64,000 bases of DNA from Escherichia phage Esco_phi_B-01. The notes beneath the pieces are model-generated. The model had not been told where the DNA came from, searched no databases, and worked only from the letters and a program-made list of their open reading frames with translations. Position numbers and translations under genes: made by a program. Shown in pieces: positions 12,149-31,534 of the stretch; within the stretch, counting starts at the first letter, position 1; every line of letters starts with the position of its first letter. The stretch lies in sequence record OP292222.1; one strand, 5' to 3'.

Positions 12149-12222
12149 GGCCCTGTAGCTGGACGGTCAAGCGAGCGACTCATAATCGCTGGATGGTGGT
12201 TCGATTCCACCCAGGGCCACCA
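12149..12222 (+). tRNA. tRNA with CAU anticodon (Met, or Ile if lysidine-modified as in T4 tRNA-Ile)
   Basis: acceptor GGCCCTG/CAGGGCC, anticodon stem AGCGA/TCGCT with loop CTCATAA, T-arm GGTGG-TTCGATT-CCACC, 3' CCA encoded. Confidence 0.8.
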
Positions 12223-12226
12223 ATTT

Positions 12227-12301
12227 GGATGTGTAGCTCAGTGGTAGAGCAGTTGACTGTTAATCAATTGGTCCATGGTTCGAATCCATGCATGTCCGCC
12301 A
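12227..12301 (+). tRNA. tRNA-Asn (GUU)
   Basis: acceptor GGATGTG/CATGTCC with G-U pairs, D-arm TAGCTCAGTGGTAGAGC, anticodon loop CTGTTAA, T-loop TTCGAAT, CCA encoded. Confidence 0.75.
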
Positions 12302-12305
12302 AATA

Positions 12306-12381
12306 CGAGGCATAGCTCAGAAGGAAGAGCAACGGTCTTCTAAACCGTAGGTCGTAGGTTCGATCCCTACTGTCTCGACCA
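12306..12381 (+). tRNA. tRNA-Arg (UCU)
   Basis: acceptor CGAGGCA/TGTCTCG, D-arm TAGCTCAGAAGGAAGAGC, anticodon stem ACGGT/ACCGT with loop CTTCTAA, T-arm GTAGG-TTCGATC-CCTAC, CCA encoded. Confidence 0.8.
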
Positions 12382-15964: not shown

Positions 15965-16304
15965 TCTTTCATCGCATGTTTATCAATTGGCTGAATATGA
16001 TATTGCTATTTCCTTATTCACGGGAATTGTCACAGGTATGCTCGGCGGTCTGGTTGGTCTGGTAATGACCACAGTTATGGCTGCAATCGAAGGAGTCATG
16101 CCTATTGAGATGGGTTTCTATATGATAATTGCTCCGGCTGTCGTGGCTTATTTTATCCCTCTCGTGTATGATATTTGCCATACAAATGCTTTGAATGCTC
16201 CCATCCGTAAGAGATATGCTTTAGAGATGGCTAATTATAATGAGTATGTAAAACAAACCAAACGTAATGACCTTGAAACCTTTATTAAGGAATGTAAATC
16301 ATGA
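15951..16304 (+). CDS. hypothetical membrane protein
   Basis: internal ATG after GAGG; two or three TM helices. Confidence 0.45.
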   Translation: MERPSLSSHVYQLAEYDIAISLFTGIVTGMLGGLVGLVMTTVMAAIEGVMPIEMGFYMIIAPAVVAYFIPLVYDICHTNALNAPIRKRYALEMANYNEYVKQTKRNDLETFIKECKS

Positions 16305-16591
16305 ATAAAATTGAAATTGAAATCCCTGAATACAACGACGAGAAATCTGCAGAAAAAGCTATCTATGCTCTTCTGAATAAAGTAGATACCATCGAACATG
16401 AATGTGAAGCTATTGCCGATAAGTACGGTATTCAATTCGGAACAGGTGATTATGGCTCAGGACGTACATACTACCCTGTTGGTTATGAATGCTCCCAGTG
16501 GTTTAAAGATGAAATTGAAAACAATGGTGGTGAAGTTGAAAATGGCGTCGTTACAGTTGGTGCCTGGATTTCCTCTTCAGCAATGTGCTAA
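16301..16591 (+). CDS. small acidic protein, paralog family member 1 (C-terminal WISSSAMC)
   Basis: one of four tandem small ORFs sharing a C-terminal W-[IV]-S-S-S-x-x-C motif. Confidence 0.5.
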   Translation: MNKIEIEIPEYNDEKSAEKAIYALLNKVDTIEHECEAIADKYGIQFGTGDYGSGRTYYPVGYECSQWFKDEIENNGGEVENGVVTVGAWISSSAMC

Positions 16592-16600
16592 GGAAACGCT

Positions 16601-16882
16601 ATGATGAATGATAACCATAACCACCCAGAGCTTCTGGCCGCAGTAAAAGAAATTCATGAAGCTATTCGTCGTGCCGAGGAAATTGCAGACAAATATGAGA
16701 CTCATTTTAATATATACCCTGCTCGCGGTATGGGCGGTGACTATTATTCTCCTGGTGCCTTGAAAGCTGACCTTGCCCATTGGGAAGAAGATGGTCATCC
16801 TGAATGGGCTATTGTTAATACTCATGACTATACAACTGACCTGGAAAATGGTGGTTGGGTGTCCTCTTCTTCTGAATGTTAA
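16601..16882 (+). CDS. small acidic protein, paralog family member 2 (C-terminal WVSSSSEC)
   Basis: as above; RBS AAGGAAA upstream. Confidence 0.5.
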   Translation: MMNDNHNHPELLAAVKEIHEAIRRAEEIADKYETHFNIYPARGMGGDYYSPGALKADLAHWEEDGHPEWAIVNTHDYTTDLENGGWVSSSSEC

Positions 16883-16891
16883 GGAAATATT

Positions 16892-17089
16892 ATGTCTCGT
16901 GAATTAGATTGTGCAATCCGAACTGCCGCGGCGGCTATTGAAAACGTTATCCAGATTTGCAAAGAAGAACGTGAAGAAGCTGATATCTATATCGATGGTG
17001 TTCGTGACTTAGAACGACATATCACGCTTTATAACGGTTGTATTACTATTAGTGGTACCTCTTGGGTATCATCCTCTTACGAATGCTAA
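16892..17089 (+). CDS. small acidic protein, paralog family member 3 (C-terminal WVSSSYEC)
   Basis: as above. Confidence 0.5.
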   Translation: MSRELDCAIRTAAAAIENVIQICKEEREEADIYIDGVRDLERHITLYNGCITISGTSWVSSSYEC

Positions 17090-17099
17090 GGAATAAAAA

Positions 17100-17324
17100 A
17101 TGACTGATATTGATGAATTAGAAAAAGCTGCTCTTGAACTGGCTGCATTGTATAAGAAAGTAAAAGATATGGCTTCTGCTCAAAGTTTTGGTGTTGAGTT
17201 AGACGATTACGATGGTGAAGTTCGTCTTGAAGATTGGCTGAATAGCTCTTGTTACGGCGAAGAAGCTGGCCGAACCTTCGTTGCTCGTCCCGATGGTAAA
17301 ATCTGGTACCCGAGCTCATGCTAA
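17100..17324 (+). CDS. small acidic protein, paralog family member 4 (C-terminal WYPSSC)
   Basis: as above, more divergent. Confidence 0.45.
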   Translation: MTDIDELEKAALELAALYKKVKDMASAQSFGVELDDYDGEVRLEDWLNSSCYGEEAGRTFVARPDGKIWYPSSC

Positions 17325-18188: not shown

Positions 18189-18207
18189 GTTTACTGAGGA
18201 AAATATT

Positions 18208-19167
18208 ATGATGCTAGTTATTGGTTCTCGTGCACTGCACCACGCCGGTCTGATTGAAAGTAAGTATATCGAAAATTCTGATTGGGATTTTATTGCCGAC
18301 CAAGGCTCATGGAATCACTTTAAAGCCCGGATGTTCGGCGCTCATGTGCACGTAGACAACCCAGACGTCCAGGCTTTTAAATGCATGCACAACGGTAAAG
18401 AAACCTATTTTGAAGCTTATATCGTCCGCGCCTTGACTAACGTACGTGAAATTACCGGCGAGCTTCAGGACGAAGATTTAACCTCAAGTTATCGACTCCT
18501 GAAATACGCCGAAAATCATATTAAAAAGGATCGTCTTACAGGTTTCTATTGGGCAACGCCTGATATCTGTCTGGCTATCAAAATGAGCCATCGTTATTTG
18601 AAGAACCACCCTTTCTTTTTGAAGACGATGTCCCACATCAAATATCTTCGTAATAAAGGTGTAACCTTGAATGAAGAGCTCCAAGAAATCATGCTGCAAC
18701 GCCAGAAAGAAACGTTGAGCTATTCTCATCCTAAATTGGATGTAAACAAATCATCATTCTTTAATGATACCATTTATACATTAGACCATGACTCCATCCA
18801 CGAAGCTGTGGCATTGGCTGGACGCCCTGCATATACCTTTTATATGAAAGATGGTTCTGAAGTCATGACCTCACGTGAGAAGTTTGAAGCTTTGCCTGAA
18901 GCTATTAAACTGGCTGGCGTATATGAAGAAACTTGTGTGTTGGCCCTAGAACGTTCACAGGTTCCTAACGACTTTAATATTTCACCATCATTAAGTTTCT
19001 ATATGGCTCTTGAGAAAGTGTGTACCTCAATCACTTCAGGCTGGTTCCGCACTTATGCCTGGGAAAACTACCAAGCTGTAGTGAATATGTATAAGACGCT
19101 AGGTGAAAATGACTACATCAAGCGGTTCCAAGATAACCAACATTTAATTCGTCCTTTCACAAAATAA
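18208..19167 (+). CDS. predicted Pol-beta-superfamily nucleotidyltransferase (hypothetical)
   Basis: N-terminal IGSRALHHAGLIESKYIENSDWDF fits the GS...D-x-D nucleotidyltransferase signature; ATG after TGAGGAAAA. Confidence 0.5.
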   Translation: MMLVIGSRALHHAGLIESKYIENSDWDFIADQGSWNHFKARMFGAHVHVDNPDVQAFKCMHNGKETYFEAYIVRALTNVREITGELQDEDLTSSYRLLKYAENHIKKDRLTGFYWATPDICLAIKMSHRYLKNHPFFLKTMSHIKYLRNKGVTLNEELQEIMLQRQKETLSYSHPKLDVNKSSFFNDTIYTLDHDSIHEAVALAGRPAYTFYMKDGSEVMTSREKFEALPEAIKLAGVYEETCVLALERSQVPNDFNISPSLSFYMALEKVCTSITSGWFRTYAWENYQAVVNMYKTLGENDYIKRFQDNQHLIRPFTK

Positions 19168-19472: not shown

Positions 19473-20159
19473 ATGAACAGCCCGAAAACTTTTAATTCTC
19501 AAGCTCGTGCAGTAGGTAGTTTTGCCGGTAAAATTTCTAACGATAAAATCAAAAACGAAACTATGTTCTTCAACAGCTCGTTGGCTTTCGCTTTTGATAA
19601 TGGTGGCCCTATTACTCGCAGCTTCATCATGAACCTGCCGGATGATTGGAACACTGACCAGGTTGTATTTGATTCTCGAGTTCATATGCTTATGCCTGGT
19701 TGGTATCCTGCTATCCCAGGTTATCATCATGATGATGTACCACGTCCGGATATTCCGGTTGGTCAACACTTTATTACTGCAGGGCAACCTGATTATGATA
19801 ATCCTCGATACCATTCTGAACATATTCTTGGTCTTGTTAACGCTGATGTGTGTCCTACTTATTTTGCAACCGGAACTGCACAATTTAGCCAGATTCCTGA
19901 TGGCGAACTTATCTATCGCCGGTGGCATAAAGAAGTTCTGGAAAAAATCGAGTCCAATGAATTAACCAAGTGGGATGCTCCTGACCGCACATTGCTCCAG
20001 TTTGATTGGCAGACATGGCATACAGGTTCTCGTGCAGTAAGTAATGGCTGGCGCTGGTTTGGTCGTGTGTCTCGTAATACCGACCGTGTTAAAAAGATTA
20101 CAAATGAAATCCGCGTTAATGCTCAAGTATATCTGGAATTCCCTATGGAGGGCTGGTAA
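19473..20159 (+). CDS. hypothetical protein
   Basis: 228 aa; RBS GAGGAAAA upstream. Confidence 0.5.
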   Translation: MNSPKTFNSQARAVGSFAGKISNDKIKNETMFFNSSLAFAFDNGGPITRSFIMNLPDDWNTDQVVFDSRVHMLMPGWYPAIPGYHHDDVPRPDIPVGQHFITAGQPDYDNPRYHSEHILGLVNADVCPTYFATGTAQFSQIPDGELIYRRWHKEVLEKIESNELTKWDAPDRTLLQFDWQTWHTGSRAVSNGWRWFGRVSRNTDRVKKITNEIRVNAQVYLEFPMEGW

Positions 20160-20746: not shown

Positions 20747-20979
20747 GTATTGCTATTTACATTAAATCCGAATCGTGTGATTCATATCTGTATTCCTACG
20801 ACACAGGAACATCAGAAGAGAAAATCAAAGAAGATTTAGAAAGCGACTTGGATATGTTCCGACCTATTTCTGATTATATGGTCCAAATATCTGATAGTGA
20901 AAGTCCGTCAACAGAAACGTGTGTTGAAATTATTATACGAGATATTTTTGAACAATCATGGAAACGAGACGATGAGTAA
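20743..20979 (+). CDS. hypothetical acidic protein
   Basis: 78 aa, ATGA overlap. Confidence 0.45.
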   Translation: MSIAIYIKSESCDSYLYSYDTGTSEEKIKEDLESDLDMFRPISDYMVQISDSESPSTETCVEIIIRDIFEQSWKRDDE

Positions 20980-21418
20980 AGTTAAAGAATTATCTGCTGG
21001 TATTTTGTTCATGACCGCCGATAAAGAACTAGTTATGGGTCGTGTAACAGGCTCTCGTAATCCAGAGAACATGCGTCATAAATGGGACATTCCTAAAGGT
21101 CATGTCGAACCGGGTGAAGAGCCTATTCAAGCAGCAATGCGTGAAACCGAAGAAGAGATTGGATTCACAGCATACGATCCTGCGTTCCTGAAAGACCTAG
21201 GTGAGTTCAAATATTCAAGCAATAAGAATCTACATCTGTTCTTATATACTGTGCCTGTCGAACACGAGCAGTTCAAGAATTGCAAATGTACAGCTTACCA
21301 TACGTTCCCTGATGGTCGTACGATTCCTGAATTCGATGCTTTTGCCTTAATTAAACGTCCACAATGGAAATACGTCATGGGCCCGTCGATGTTTAAGGTT
21401 TTAGATTCACTCTTTTGA
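20972..21418 (+). CDS. nudE: Nudix hydrolase NudE
   Basis: Nudix box [23 protein letters not shown]; directly upstream of e as in T4. Confidence 0.8.
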
Positions 21419-21426
21419 TATAAATA
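21419..21426 (+). promoter_or_regulatory. late promoter TATAAATA of lysozyme gene e
   Basis: exact TATAAATA 23 nt upstream of the e ATG. Confidence 0.6.
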
Positions 21427-21448
21427 CCTCCTATAATCAGGAGGTATT
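21423..21448 (+). promoter_or_regulatory. RBS-sequestering hairpin of gene e
   Basis: AATACCTCCT-ATAATC-AGGAGGTATT; the 3' arm contains the SD AGGAGG. Confidence 0.6.
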
Positions 21449-21449
21449 T

Positions 21450-21938
21450 ATGGATATTTTTGATATGTTACGTCAAGACGAAGGTCTTGATTTAAATCTT
21501 TATAAAGACACCGAAGGTTATTGGACTATTGGTATAGGCCAGTTAGTTACCAAGAACCCATCTAAAGATGTTGCTCGCGCTGAACTTGATAAGCTTATGG
21601 GGCGAGTTTGTAATGGTCGTATTACTATGGCTGAAGCTGAACAGCTCTTTAACCGTTCAGTGGAAAATGCTCGTAGAGCTATAATGCGTAATCCTAAATT
21701 GAAACCGGTTTATGATGTGCTGGACGAAGTTCGTCGTTGCGCATTGATTAATATGGTCTTCCAAATGGGCGAAGCTGGTGTAGCAGGATTTACCAACTCT
21801 CTGCGTATGCTCCAACAGAAACGTTGGGATGATGCAGCAGTTAACCTGGCACAGTCTCGTTGGTACAAGCAAACCCCGAATCGTGCCAAGCGTGTTATCG
21901 CCACCTTTAAAACCGGTACTTGGGCTGCTTATAGATAA
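21450..21938 (+). CDS. e: endolysin (T4 lysozyme e homolog)
   Basis: [35 protein letters not shown] and [32 protein letters not shown] closely match T4 lysozyme. Confidence 0.9.
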
Positions 21939-30074: not shown

Positions 30075-30527
30075 ATGATTATCAATTCAAACTCTTGGCA
30101 CGTTAAATTACACGACCGTTTTTACGACCGTCATTCTCGACCACACTCTTTGTGTGCTTATTTCTGGAAAATGGTTTGGGCTTGTTTTGCTTGTGCAGTT
30201 GTTGCAGGTAGTACGCTTTTTGGATTAACTGTTGCAGGAGCTGGTGTATTAGAGCATTTCTTTGTATTAAGTACTCCCGTTCTGTTGAGCCTCGGGTTTG
30301 TTTTAGGGTTGACTGCAATAGCTCTTATTATTGCGCTATCCATCGGTTTGGCATTCGGTGCGATGAATTTACACGCATGGTATGATGCCCGTAAAGAAGA
30401 AAAGGAATGGGAACGAATTAAAGCTAAACGTGAAGGAAAGGAAATTAAAGAAAATATAGTCGTCCAATACATTAAAGCTCGTAAATCTAAGATGTGTCCT
30501 GTAATTCACTTCGAGAACAAAGAATGA
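30075..30527 (+). CDS. hypothetical membrane protein
   Basis: 150 aa; three predicted TM helices. Confidence 0.5.
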   Translation: MIINSNSWHVKLHDRFYDRHSRPHSLCAYFWKMVWACFACAVVAGSTLFGLTVAGAGVLEHFFVLSTPVLLSLGFVLGLTAIALIIALSIGLAFGAMNLHAWYDARKEEKEWERIKAKREGKEIKENIVVQYIKARKSKMCPVIHFENKE

Positions 30528-31534
30528 GAACAGTTATGAAAGGCTACTTCGGTAGCCATCTTTATGGAACAAGTACTCCGGAATCCGATGTCGATTTTAA
30601 AGAAATCTTTGTTCCACATCCGCGTGATATTCTGTTAGGTACGGCAATGAACCATACCAACCTGAACACGAATAACACTGCTTCCAAAAACACTAAAGAT
30701 GATGTTGACCATGAGCTTTACAGCCTGAAATATTTCTTTAAACTGGCTGCTGAAGGCGAAACCGTTGCTCTGGATATGCTCCACACTCCACCTGAACTAG
30801 TGGTTAAATCTGATTTACCTGATGTATGGAAATTTATCCAAGATAACCGTTCACGTTTCTATACAACTAACATGAAAGCCTATTTAGGGTACGTCCGTAA
30901 GCAAGCTTCTAAATATGGTGTTAAGGGTTCTCGATTGGCTGCTCTGCGTGGTGTACTGGCAATTGTTAACCAGATTCCTGAACAGTGGGTCGATTATCAA
31001 GAAGGCATTCCAGATCGTTTACGTCGGACTAAGGTAGAAGATATCAAGCACAGGCTCCCTGAAAACGAGTTTTGCGAATGGGTATTTCATAACCATGAGA
31101 AAACAGGTCCTCAAACGTTCTATACTGTCCTCGGACGTAAGTACCAAACTACTTTGTCATTGGTCGAGCTTAAGCAATCTCTGAATAAACTCGATGCCGA
31201 ATATGGCGAACGTGCTCGTAAGGCTGAAGCCAATGAAGGTATTGACTGGAAAGCTCTGAGCCATGCTTATCGTGCCGGGTACCAATTGATGGAAATCTAC
31301 CAAACTGGTGACTTGGTATTCCCATTGCGTGAAGCCTCTATCATTAAGCTGATTAAAGCTGGTGAATTACCATTTAAAGAAGTTCAAGAACTTCTTGAAG
31401 ATACTGTCGATTTAGTTGAAGTTCTGGCCATCCAGGCAGCTAAGAATGGTATGCCTGCGAAGGTGGACATGAAGTTCTGGGACAAGTTCGTCGAAGAGGT
31501 GTACCTTGACAACCACAACTCTTATTACCGTTAA
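30524..31534 (+). CDS. predicted nucleotidyltransferase (Pol-beta superfamily); alternative start 30536
   Basis: N-terminal YFGSHLYGTSTPESDVDF fits hG[GS]...[DE]h[DE]h; followed by terminator and PeSL. Confidence 0.55.
   Translation: MRTVMKGYFGSHLYGTSTPESDVDFKEIFVPHPRDILLGTAMNHTNLNTNNTASKNTKDDVDHELYSLKYFFKLAAEGETVALDMLHTPPELVVKSDLPDVWKFIQDNRSRFYTTNMKAYLGYVRKQASKYGVKGSRLAALRGVLAIVNQIPEQWVDYQEGIPDRLRRTKVEDIKHRLPENEFCEWVFHNHEKTGPQTFYTVLGRKYQTTLSLVELKQSLNKLDAEYGERARKAEANEGIDWKALSHAYRAGYQLMEIYQTGDLVFPLREASIIKLIKAGELPFKEVQELLEDTVDLVEVLAIQAAKNGMPAKVDMKFWDKFVEEVYLDNHNSYYR

What the first reader, a model, noticed from the sequence alone, without database searches (positions are those of the whole stretch)
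18208..19167. Second predicted nucleotidyltransferase in the hyperplastic region
The 319-aa protein begins MMLVIGSRALHHAGLIESKYIENSDWDF, matching the GS-x(9-13)-D-x-D signature of Pol-beta-type nucleotidyltransferases (KNTase/MNT-like). Together with the NTase at 30524 this gives the phage two unrelated NTase-fold proteins, suggesting nucleotide-transfer chemistry against host targets or signals.
Basis: partly seen in the sequence, partly recalled or inferred. Interest (0 to 1): 0.45.

Follow-up and report, generated by a model that had tools for sequence, protein, structure and literature searches.

The report
Phage nucleotidyltransferase with tail-tagged partner proteins
The gene very probably encodes an active nucleotide-transferring enzyme of an uncharacterised virus-specific family, and in nearly all related phages it sits just downstream of genes for small acidic proteins that all end in the same Trp-Ser-Ser-Ser-x-x-Cys tail, which suggests a two-part system that has not been described.

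Summary
The ORF (18208-19167, +, 319 aa) is real. The window is a JS98-like Dhakavirus (T4-type coliphage). Pfam sees only DUF7277 (aa 2-101) plus DUF7275 (aa 120-305).

The family is large (1,604 clusters at 50% identity) and almost entirely viral, reaching jumbo phages and giant viruses.

New here: in 22-23 of 24 lineages, 1-6 genes for small acidic proteins (PHROG 899) lie directly upstream on the same strand. All end in G-x-W-x-S-S-S-x-x-Cys-stop. The window has four (16301-17324).

Best reading: a Mg-dependent NTase working with these partners, most likely nucleotidylylating their Ser-rich tail. A MenT-like tRNA 3'-end activity is the main rival. The acceptor is inferred, not shown.

The parts
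18208..19167 (+). NTase gene (319 aa plus stop); homolog of RB69 ORF134c / IME08 orf116; PHROG 2141
   Evidence: 98% identical to the JS98 protein
18196..18199 (+). Shine-Dalgarno GAGG, 8 nt upstream of the ATG
   Evidence: sequence read directly
18211..18510 (+). N-terminal catalytic lobe (aa 2-101, Pfam DUF7277): beta1(2-5)-alpha(6-12)-beta2(26-31)-alpha(32-41)-beta strands 45-47, 54-61, 64-73
18223..18228 (+). codons G6-S7 (hG[GS] motif at the beta1/alpha junction)
   Evidence: 115/117 conserved
18280..18288 (+). codons D25-W26-D27 (metal-binding DxD at the start of beta2)
   Evidence: 116/117 conserved
18412..18414 (+). codon E69 (third catalytic carboxylate, within strand 64-73)
   Evidence: 116/117 conserved; strand assignment
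18565..19122 (+). C-terminal helical lobe (aa 120-305, Pfam DUF7275). It has 54 near-invariant positions. K125, S127, H128, K139, E168, H194, D195, H198, E240, E241, E248 and R249 are also kept in the short-form relatives
   Evidence: Pfam 2.8e-78; conservation; no strong PDB neighbour for this lobe alone
16301..16591 (+). partner protein copy 1 (96 aa, pI 4.3, ends ...GAWISSSAMC-stop), PHROG 899
   Evidence: AF2 model pLDDT 91
16601..16882 (+). partner protein copy 2 (93 aa, ends ...GGWVSSSSEC-stop), PHROG 899
16892..17089 (+). partner protein copy 3 (65 aa, ends ...TSWVSSSYEC-stop), PHROG 4882
   Evidence: tail motif
17100..17324 (+). partner protein copy 4 (74 aa, internal WLNSSC plus terminal ...IWYPSSC-stop), PHROG 899
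30524..31534 (+). the other NTase named in the finding: RlaP-family Pol-beta NTase (PF10127). Not part of the module

Best explanation
The gene encodes a catalytically competent Pol-beta-superfamily nucleotidyltransferase of a virus-restricted family. Pfam DUF7277 is the catalytic lobe and DUF7275 is a helical second lobe. The protein is bilobed like MenT/AbiEii toxins and ANT(2'')/Lnu enzymes.

By analogy with the superfamily, D25, D27 and E69 would bind two Mg2+ ions and promote attack of an acceptor hydroxyl on the alpha-phosphate of an NTP. Invariant basic and His residues of the helical lobe (K125, H128, K139, H194/D195/H198, E240/E241, E248/R249) would line the cleft and bind the NTP and the acceptor.

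The enzyme is one half of a conserved two-part module. The other half is one to six upstream genes for small acidic proteins whose only invariant feature is the C-terminal tail G-x-W-x-S-S-S-x-x-Cys-COOH.

My committed reading is that the NTase nucleotidylylates a serine hydroxyl in that tail, that is, protein NMPylation of a co-encoded partner, as MntA does to HepT.

Shown: the ORF, motif invariance, the predicted fold, the gene pairing.
Inferred: catalysis, a functional link to the partners, the identity of the acceptor.

Approximate confidence by step:
- Active NTase: 0.9
- Functional link with the partners: 0.7
- Partner tail is the acceptor: 0.3-0.35
For: Fold and catalysis:
- The only near-invariant N-lobe residues are G6, S7, D25, D27 and E69.
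- The AF2 model has pLDDT 91.7, with GS at the beta1/alpha junction, DxD on beta2 and E69 on a strand.
- Minimal 208-266-aa relatives keep GS...DxD fused to the DUF7275 core.
- D25-to-K125 spacing is 100 residues, against 96/102/109 for the catalytic Asp-to-Lys in MenT1/4/3 (PMC10435456).

Module:
- In 80 IMG/VR loci (24 lineages), one neighbour family recurs in 19/24 lineages by HMM and 22-23/24 with the tail motif. The next-best neighbour family is in 4/24.
- 215 partner ORFs lie upstream on the same strand, 4 downstream, 1 on the opposite strand. The nearest partner is <=120 bp away in 15 lineages.
- The pairing holds in Phapecoctavirus, Pseudomonas Otagovirus, Acinetobacter T4-likes, jumbo-phage contigs and MAG contigs.
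- Reverse test: 4/4 partner look-ups have a PF23942/PF23940 gene 57-700 bp downstream.
- The genus distribution of the partner tracks that of the NTase.
- 152/154 partners end in Cys, against 4.7% of background ORFs. The bodies are 22% identical, yet W, S, S and C of the tail are invariant.

Precedent: the minimal Pol-beta NTase MntA poly-AMPylates its co-encoded partner HepT (PMC7641770).
Against: - No direct evidence of binding or modification; no complex model could be made.
- Short-form relatives keep all catalytic and core C-lobe residues but have no partner nearby. The basic reaction therefore does not require a partner.
- One or two long-form lineages lack a detectable upstream partner.
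- The spacing between the Ser pair and the terminal Cys varies (WQGSSC, WDSSTC, WVSSSxxC), which argues against a rigid recognition geometry.
- In the partner model W89 is part of the last beta-strand, and only about six residues are less ordered. The 'tail' is short.
- The closest structural neighbour (MenT1) acts on tRNA, not protein.
- Known protein-modifying Pol-beta NTases (GlnE, MntA, DrrA) use Tyr rather than Ser (my own knowledge).
- Pairing could in principle reflect co-mobility of a cassette without a shared biochemical step.
Confidence: 0.4

Rival explanations
1. MenT-like RNA 3'-end nucleotidyltransferase. The enzyme adds nucleotides to tRNA (or other RNA) 3' ends, either to manipulate host translation or to repair or cap damaged tRNA ends. 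The small acidic partners would then be inhibitors, regulators or nucleic-acid mimics, analogous to the 68-aa MenA1 encoded upstream of MenT1, rather than substrates.
For: - MenT1's antitoxin is a small protein encoded directly upstream (PMC7450476; PMC10435456).
- The partners are strongly acidic: median pI 4.4, net charge -9.
- The C-lobe is much more conserved than the N-lobe (0.71 vs 0.52 mean column identity), and the family reaches giant eukaryotic viruses. This fits a universal substrate such as the tRNA CCA end.
- Pnkp and Rnl1 RNA-repair genes lie a few kb upstream in jumbo-phage lineages, and a polynucleotide kinase lies near the short form in Streptomyces phage BillNye.
- Gordonia phage Culver's copy lies 1.25 kb from a tRNA cluster.
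Against: - No DUF1814/AbiEii sequence match in Pfam or PADLOC.
- The MenT motif IV (+DxxD) and the Ser/Thr two residues before the first Asp are not conserved.
- The whole protein is not basic (pI about 6.2-6.5).
- The phage's own three tRNAs already encode CCA.
- Pnkp or tRNA proximity is seen in only a few lineages.
- Up to six diversified tandem copies with an invariant tail is unusual for an antitoxin.
Confidence: 0.25
2. Small-molecule O-nucleotidylyltransferase, like ANT(2'')-Ia or LnuA. The enzyme would inactivate an anti-phage metabolite or modify a nucleotide or NAD-derived signal. The partner genes would be unrelated passengers.
For: - NAD-related genes occur within about 2.5 kb in four unrelated contexts: Sir2-like in Phapecoctavirus, NAD-dependent deacetylase in Vibrio PG216, an ADP-ribosyltransferase in Acinetobacter DLP2, and NudE in this window.
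Against: - It does not explain the near-universal, oriented and often abutting pairing with tail-motif proteins.
- The 200-aa helical lobe with 54 invariant positions is far larger than the C-lobes of ANT(2'') or LnuA.
- The NAD-related neighbours belong to different families and sit at variable distances, which may be chance in accessory-gene regions.
Confidence: 0.12
3. Bifunctional enzyme in which the helical DUF7275 lobe is a second, metal-dependent phosphoesterase-type active site (His/Asp/Glu cluster H128, H194-D195, H198, E240/E241, E248). It would be paired with the NTase lobe as a 'writer-eraser' or end-healing pair, as in GlnD or the E. coli CCA-adding enzyme.
For: - The C-lobe carries an unusually dense set of invariant His, Asp and Glu residues.
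- H194-D195-S-I-H198-E-A resembles an HDxxHxA metal motif. That resemblance is my own observation, not a test.
- The C-lobe is the better conserved half.
Against: - No HD or PDE family hit, even as a recurrent weak match in 32 members at E<=10.
- The invariant residues may simply line the NTase cleft.
Confidence: 0.1
4. A non-catalytic NTase-fold protein (structural or binding role only).
For: None specific. Pseudo-enzymes exist in the superfamily (my own knowledge).
Against: All three carboxylates and the GS motif are conserved in 115-116 of 117 homologs and in the short forms, while the rest of the N-lobe varies freely.
Confidence: 0.03

Closest known systems
MenT1/MenT3/MenT4 and AbiEii (DUF1814 NTase toxins; PDB 8an4, 6j7n, 6y56)
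   Same: - Bilobed: an N-terminal Pol-beta core plus a helical lobe.
- Long GS-to-DxD spacer (x15 in AbiEii; mode 17 here).
- An invariant Lys flanked by hydrophobic residues about 100 residues after the DxD (K125, against K137/K171/K189).
- MenT1 has a small protein encoded directly upstream.
   Different: - No sequence match to PF08843 or the PADLOC AbiE models.
- No conserved Arg in motif II, no +DxxD motif IV, and no Ser/Thr phospho-site before the DxD.
- The C-lobe is about 200 aa with its own dense conservation.
- The family is viral, not a bacterial toxin-antitoxin locus.
- The upstream partners are multi-copy and defined by a W-SSS-x-x-C terminus, unlike MenA/AbiEi antitoxins.
ANT(2'')-Ia (AadB, 4xje) and LnuA (4wh5) antibiotic nucleotidyltransferases
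   Different: They are 160-180 aa, act on antibiotics, and have no equivalent of DUF7275 or of the partner genes. No sequence similarity.
MntA/HepT (MNT-HEPN type VII toxin-antitoxin)
   Same: A minimal Pol-beta NTase that (poly)nucleotidylylates a hydroxyl of a protein encoded next to it (PMC7641770). This is the functional precedent for the proposed mechanism.
   Different: - The partner there is a HEPN RNase modified on Tyr; here it is a small acidic protein with a Ser-rich C-terminus and no Rx4-6H motif.
- Gene order is reversed: MNT is upstream there, the NTase is downstream here.
- No PF01909 match.
Kanamycin nucleotidyltransferase / MNT
   Same: Same superfamily and the same hG[GS]...DxD...E catalytic logic.
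   Different: - The spacer is 17 residues, outside x(9-13).
- No PF01909 or KNTase_C match.
RlaP (PF10127), the other NTase in this window at 30524
   Same: A Pol-beta-superfamily NTase in the same phage.
   Different: No pairwise similarity, a different Pfam family, and a different genomic context.

Membership tests
Pol-beta nucleotidyltransferase superfamily | hG[GS] motif at the beta1/alpha junction | tested here: met
   V4-I5-G6-S7. G and S are conserved in 115/117 homologs. Strand 2-5 is followed by helix 6-12.
Pol-beta nucleotidyltransferase superfamily | [DE]h[DE]h on the next strand plus a third carboxylate on a later strand | tested here: met
   D25-W-D27-F at the start of strand 26-31; E69 in strand 64-73. 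Each is conserved in 116/117.
Pol-beta nucleotidyltransferase superfamily | alpha/beta core fold shared with solved NTases | tested here: met
   [not shown]
Pol-beta nucleotidyltransferase superfamily | Mg-dependent NMP transfer activity | not testable with these tools
   Requires biochemistry.
DUF1814 / AbiEii / MenT toxins | sequence match to the family model (PF08843; PADLOC AbiE models) | tested here: not met
   No hit at E<=10 for the query or for 32 family members.
DUF1814 / AbiEii / MenT toxins | motif II with about x15 spacing and a conserved Arg (PMC3985639) | tested here: inconclusive
   The spacer is 9-21 residues, mode 17, which is similar. No residue between S7 and D25 is conserved, so the Arg is absent.
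DUF1814 / AbiEii / MenT toxins | motif III: Lys surrounded by hydrophobic residues in the C-terminal lobe | tested here: inconclusive
   [not shown]
DUF1814 / AbiEii / MenT toxins | motif IV: +DxxD pentad | tested here: not met
   There is no conserved +DxxD. The position 18 residues after K125 is D in 53 and H in 57 of 117; K214-D215-G-S-E218 is not kept in the short forms.
DUF1814 / AbiEii / MenT toxins | pairing with an AbiEi/MenA-type antitoxin in a bacterial toxin-antitoxin locus | tested here: not met
   The context is viral. The upstream genes are PHROG 899 tail-motif proteins with no Pfam or PADLOC match.
KNTase / MNT (PF01909 NTP_transf_2) | GS-x(9-13)-DxD and a family HMM match | tested here: not met
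   The spacer is 17 residues in this protein. No PF01909 hit.
MntA/HepT type VII toxin-antitoxin | adjacent HEPN partner with an Rx4-6H motif | tested here: not met
   The partners have no conserved Arg or His. The only invariant positions are W, S, S and C of the tail.
HD / PDE phosphohydrolases (for the DUF7275 lobe) | HD-domain fold or HMM match | tested here: not met
   [not shown]
Pfam DUF7277 + DUF7275 / PHROG 2141 | family HMM matches above the curated threshold | tested here: met
   95.4 and 262.6 bits against a cut-off of 27; PHROG 2141 at 1.7e-149.

The most novel reading that the evidence does not exclude
A widespread viral protein-tagging system. The DUF7277/DUF7275 NTase attaches a nucleotide to the invariant W-x-S-S-S-x-x-Cys C-terminus, or primes a short polynucleotide on it. 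That terminus is shared by a diversified, multi-copy family of small acidic phage proteins. This would be a new post-translational modification module operating during early infection, in T4-like, Phapecoctavirus-like, Otagovirus-like and jumbo phages. A variant of the same idea is that Ser nucleotidylylation activates the tail for further chemistry with the terminal Cys.
Probability: 0.27. Interest if true: 0.8.

Novelty: new variant of a known kind. Interest (0 to 1): 0.55.

Why it matters
This family is one of the larger uncharacterised gene families in big lytic phages: 1,604 clusters at 50% identity and 734 of about 50,700 sequenced phage records. It is carried by many therapeutic-candidate coliphages and by Klebsiella, Acinetobacter and Aeromonas phages. 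It is currently labelled only as two DUFs.

Showing that it is an NTase with an intact catalytic centre gives it a testable chemistry. The tight, oriented pairing with tail-tagged small proteins gives a concrete candidate acceptor or regulator, so simple experiments (co-expression plus intact-mass MS, [alpha-32P]NTP labelling) can now be designed.

If the partners are substrates, this would be the first NTase-based protein-modification module described in phages. If the enzyme is MenT-like, it would be a viral counterpart of a bacterial tRNA-targeting toxin.

Tried and rejected
1. Sequence bridges to known families. PDB phmmer and profile searches found nothing. NCBIfam and PADLOC found nothing. 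There were no recurrent weak Pfam hits in 32 members.

2. AFDB50 fold search. The library was not available, so the closest cellular relatives of the fold are unknown.

3. Rosetta-stone fusion. P0238 (377 aa) looked like partner plus NTase in one chain, but the DNA has a TAG stop after ...GGPACW that the source's gene caller read through. Rejected. It is just another abutting pair, with a 12-nt gap.

4. Conserved downstream partner. The 96-aa and 228-aa genes downstream in the window are not related to the genes downstream in Phapecoctavirus.

5. tRNA maturation rationale. All three phage tRNAs encode CCA, so de novo CCA addition is not needed for them.

6. tRNA-cluster or Pnkp/Rnl1 linkage as a general rule. 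This is seen only in 2 jumbo-phage lineages, BillNye and Culver.

7. Reverse locus scan with the partner alignment.

8. Literature. No paper mentions DUF7275, DUF7277, PF23940 or PF23942, and none was found on phage homologs.

9. Late-promoter control. There is no TATAAATA between 13203 and 21419. The sigma-70 scan was no better than shuffles.

10. Cellular genomes. Only 5 loci were found among 185,579 species genomes, all MAG contigs. The scan used long-form peptide patterns and could miss divergent cellular relatives.

Full report
**Observation.** The ORF at 18208-19167 (+) is real and encodes 319 aa starting MMLVIGSRALHHAGLIESKYIENSDWDF. A GAGG ribosome-binding site lies 8 nt upstream. The window is 96.7% identical to Escherichia phage JS98, a Dhakavirus and T4-type coliphage. 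In phage IME08 the gene is orf116, 'similar to RB69 ORF134c'. It lies in the tRNA-to-e accessory region between e.6/e.8 and e.2/nudE/e. It sits in a long co-directional run of small ORFs. There is no late-promoter TATAAATA between 13203 and 21419, so I infer early or middle expression.

**What the databases say.** Pfam gives only two domains of unknown function: DUF7277 (aa 2-101, 3.5e-27) and DUF7275 (aa 120-305, 2.8e-78). PHROGs gives family 2141, function unknown. NCBIfam, PADLOC and PDB sequence searches give nothing. No paper in the library mentions these DUFs. A few GenBank records for Acinetobacter phages call the homolog 'putative nucleotidyltransferase'.

**Is it an NTase?** Yes, with high confidence.
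- Across 117 homologs (down to about 43% identity), only five positions in residues 1-110 are >=97% conserved. They are exactly the Pol-beta catalytic signature: G6, S7, D25, D27, E69.
- An AlphaFold2 model built on a 32-sequence alignment is confident (pLDDT 91.7, pTM 0.85). It places GS at the beta1/helix junction, DxD at the start of beta2 and E69 on a later strand.

The spacer between GS and DxD is 17 residues (9-21 in the family), not 9-13. The nearest relatives are MenT/AbiEii and ANT(2'')/Lnu, not KNTase/MNT. The 'other NTase' at 30524 is a RlaP-family Pol-beta protein. It has no pairwise similarity to this one, so the two are distinct families of one superfamily.

**Anatomy.**
- The helical C-terminal lobe is the better conserved half: mean column identity 0.71 against 0.52 for the N-lobe. 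It has 54 near-invariant positions, including K125, H128, K139, R165, E168, H174, H194, D195, H198, E240, E241, E248, R249 and R281.
- Minimal relatives of 208-266 aa occur in Streptomyces, Gordonia, Mycobacterium, Vibrio and Pseudoalteromonas phages. They keep hhhGS...KDhDhh fused to the K.SH...DHD..H...EE..ALER core. The NTase signature and DUF7275 are therefore inseparable, and DUF7275 is best read as the second lobe of one enzyme.
- K125 is an invariant Lys among hydrophobic residues. It lies 100 residues after the DxD, comparable to the catalytic Lys of MenT1/4/3 at 96/102/109. I could not verify the residue-level superposition.
- The C-lobe alone has no convincing PDB neighbour. It shows no HD/PDE signal, although H194-D195-S-I-H198-E-A resembles such a metal motif.

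**Distribution.**
- The family has 2,121 clusters at 90% identity and 1,604 representatives at 50% identity, of which 571 are at E<=1e-30. The top 150 are all 290-350 aa single-unit proteins.
- It occurs in 734 phage records: T4-like phages of Escherichia, Klebsiella, Enterobacter, Aeromonas and Acinetobacter, plus Phapecoctavirus, Pseudomonas Otagovirus, Stenotrophomonas phages and, as short forms, actinophages.
- The Escherichia count (259) shows it is absent from most T4-proper genomes.
- Only five loci turned up among 185,579 species genomes, all MAG contigs. That scan used long-form peptide patterns.
- BFVD adds full-length structural relatives in giant eukaryotic viruses: Sylvanvirus (508 aa) and Satyrvirus (571 aa), both labelled DUF7275.

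**A conserved partner.** I clustered the ORFs of 80 IMG/VR loci and grouped the loci into 24 lineages by NTase identity >=65%.
- One neighbour family stood out: 13/24 lineages by BLAST, 19/24 by HMM, and 22-23/24 when the tail motif is also accepted. The next-best neighbour family is in 4/24.
- These are small proteins, mostly 60-170 aa. They are strongly acidic, with median pI 4.4 and net charge -9. They belong to PHROG 899/4882 and have no Pfam family.
- Their bodies are very divergent (22% mean column identity). The only invariant positions are Met1 and W, S and C of the C-terminal tail G-x-W-x-S-S-S-x-x-Cys-stop.
- 152 of 154 HMM hits end in Cys, against 4.7% of background ORFs.
- 215 copies lie upstream on the NTase strand, 4 downstream and 1 on the opposite strand. 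The nearest copy is <=120 bp from the NTase ORF in 15 lineages. There are 1-6 copies per locus.
- The pairing also holds in Phapecoctavirus, Otagovirus PN09, Acinetobacter DLP2 and the MAG contigs.
- In the reverse direction, 4 of 4 partner proteins looked up have a PF23942/PF23940 gene 57-700 bp downstream.
- The genus profile of the partner in the phage database tracks that of the NTase: Aeromonas 57 vs 59, Enterobacter 34 vs 36, Shigella 17 vs 18.
- The short-form NTases have no such neighbour.
- In the window there are four tandem copies at 16301-16591, 16601-16882, 16892-17089 and 17100-17324, 0.9-1.9 kb upstream of the NTase. In three of the four copies the Cys-TAA stop is followed directly by GGA, giving the TAAGGA ribosome-binding site of the next gene.
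- An AF2 model of copy 1 is confident (pLDDT 91). It shows a long helix plus a small sheet, with W89 in the last strand and only the final six or so residues less ordered.

**Mechanism.**
- Shown: an intact three-carboxylate Pol-beta centre under strong purifying selection, a MenT/ANT-like bilobed fold, and a near-obligate, oriented gene pairing with tail-tagged proteins.
- Inferred: two-metal NMP transfer from an NTP to a hydroxyl acceptor.
- I commit to the partner tail's serine hydroxyl as the most likely acceptor. The precedent is MntA, which poly-AMPylates its neighbour HepT.
- The reason is the pattern itself. A single invariant terminal tag on otherwise freely diverging, multi-copy bodies is what a shared modification handle looks like.
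- I give this roughly a 30-35% chance. The main rival (about 25%) is a MenT-like tRNA/RNA 3'-end transferase with the acidic partners as regulators or mimics. In its favour are the top structural neighbour, the MenA1 analogy, the universal-substrate-like conservation, the reach into giant viruses, and occasional Pnkp/Rnl1 or tRNA neighbours.
- Lesser rivals are a small-molecule ANT/Lnu-type activity, a bifunctional enzyme with a second metal site in DUF7275, and a pseudo-enzyme.

**Comparison and membership.** It works like a Pol-beta NTase and meets every testable defining feature of that superfamily. It is not a demonstrable member of DUF1814/AbiEii/MenT: no HMM match, no motif IV, no motif II Arg, no phospho-site Ser/Thr, and no AbiEi/MenA-type antitoxin. 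Nor is it a member of PF01909 KNTase/MNT, of MntA/HepT (the partner is not HEPN) or of HD/PDE. It is a member of Pfam DUF7277+DUF7275 and PHROG 2141.

**Rejected leads.**
- An apparent partner-NTase fusion (P0238) is a TAG read-through by the source's gene caller.
- The downstream neighbours are not conserved.
- All phage tRNAs encode CCA.
- AFDB50 was unavailable.

**Verdict.** The enzyme belongs to a large, virus-restricted and uncharacterised NTase family. The more interesting result is the previously unremarked two-part module with W-SSS-x-x-Cys-terminated proteins. I rate it a new variant of a known kind, with interest 0.55.

Noticed in passing
window 16301-17324 (+): Four tandem paralogous genes for small acidic proteins ending in W[IV]SSS..C-stop (the fourth ends ...WYPSSC). 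In three of the four, the Cys codon and TAA stop are followed directly by GGA, giving the TAAGGA ribosome-binding site of the next gene. This became the central new result, as the partner family of the NTase.
   Followed up: yes
window 19473-20159 (+): A 228-aa ORF downstream of the NTase (RB69 ORF132c homolog) with a PGYHHDD...WHTG pattern suggestive of a metal-binding, cupin- or dioxygenase-like protein. It has no Pfam hit and is not conserved next to the NTase in Phapecoctavirus.
   Followed up: partly
window 20897-21460: A NudE-type Nudix hydrolase (PF00293). It is followed at 21419 by TATAAATA inside a 14-bp-stem hairpin, which is likely the late promoter/terminator junction ahead of the lysozyme gene e.
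   Followed up: partly
window 12149-12381 (+): Three phage tRNA genes (Met-CAT, Asn-GTT, Arg-TCT), each with the 3'-CCA encoded.
   Followed up: yes
L097:1-2030, L098:1-2030, L099:123-1046, L100:1-768, L058-L065 and L010:785-1657: T4-type RNA-repair genes (Pnkp, and Rnl1 in some) lie 2-4 kb upstream of the partner/NTase module in jumbo-phage lineages. A polynucleotide kinase lies near the short-form NTase of Streptomyces phage BillNye. A Metallophos phosphoesterase often lies about 1 kb downstream.
   Followed up: partly
L007:7200-8331, L013:5900-6640, L009:4853-5167, window 20897-21418: NAD- or ADP-ribose-related genes (Sir2-like, NAD-dependent deacetylase, ADP-ribosyltransferase, NudE) occur within about 2.5 kb downstream of the NTase in four unrelated phage groups. 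This may be chance in accessory regions.
   Followed up: no
BFVD hits A0A3G5AJ90 (Sylvanvirus, 508 aa) and A0A3G5AE53 (Satyrvirus, 571 aa): Giant eukaryotic viruses (metagenome-assembled) carry longer proteins with the full NTase+DUF7275 unit (TMq about 0.7). The sequences could not be retrieved to see the extra domains or to look for partner genes.
   Followed up: no
L101:107-1240: An ENA metagenome gene call reads through a TAG stop, artificially fusing a partner protein (which ends ...GGPACW, so Cys is not the last residue here) to the NTase. This is either a gene-caller genetic-code choice or a TAG-recoding phage.
   Followed up: partly
L041:5709-5954, L084:5432-5677, window 17100-17324: A partner subfamily carries the motif twice: an internal W-x-S-S-S-C-Y-G plus the terminal W..SSC.
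   Followed up: no
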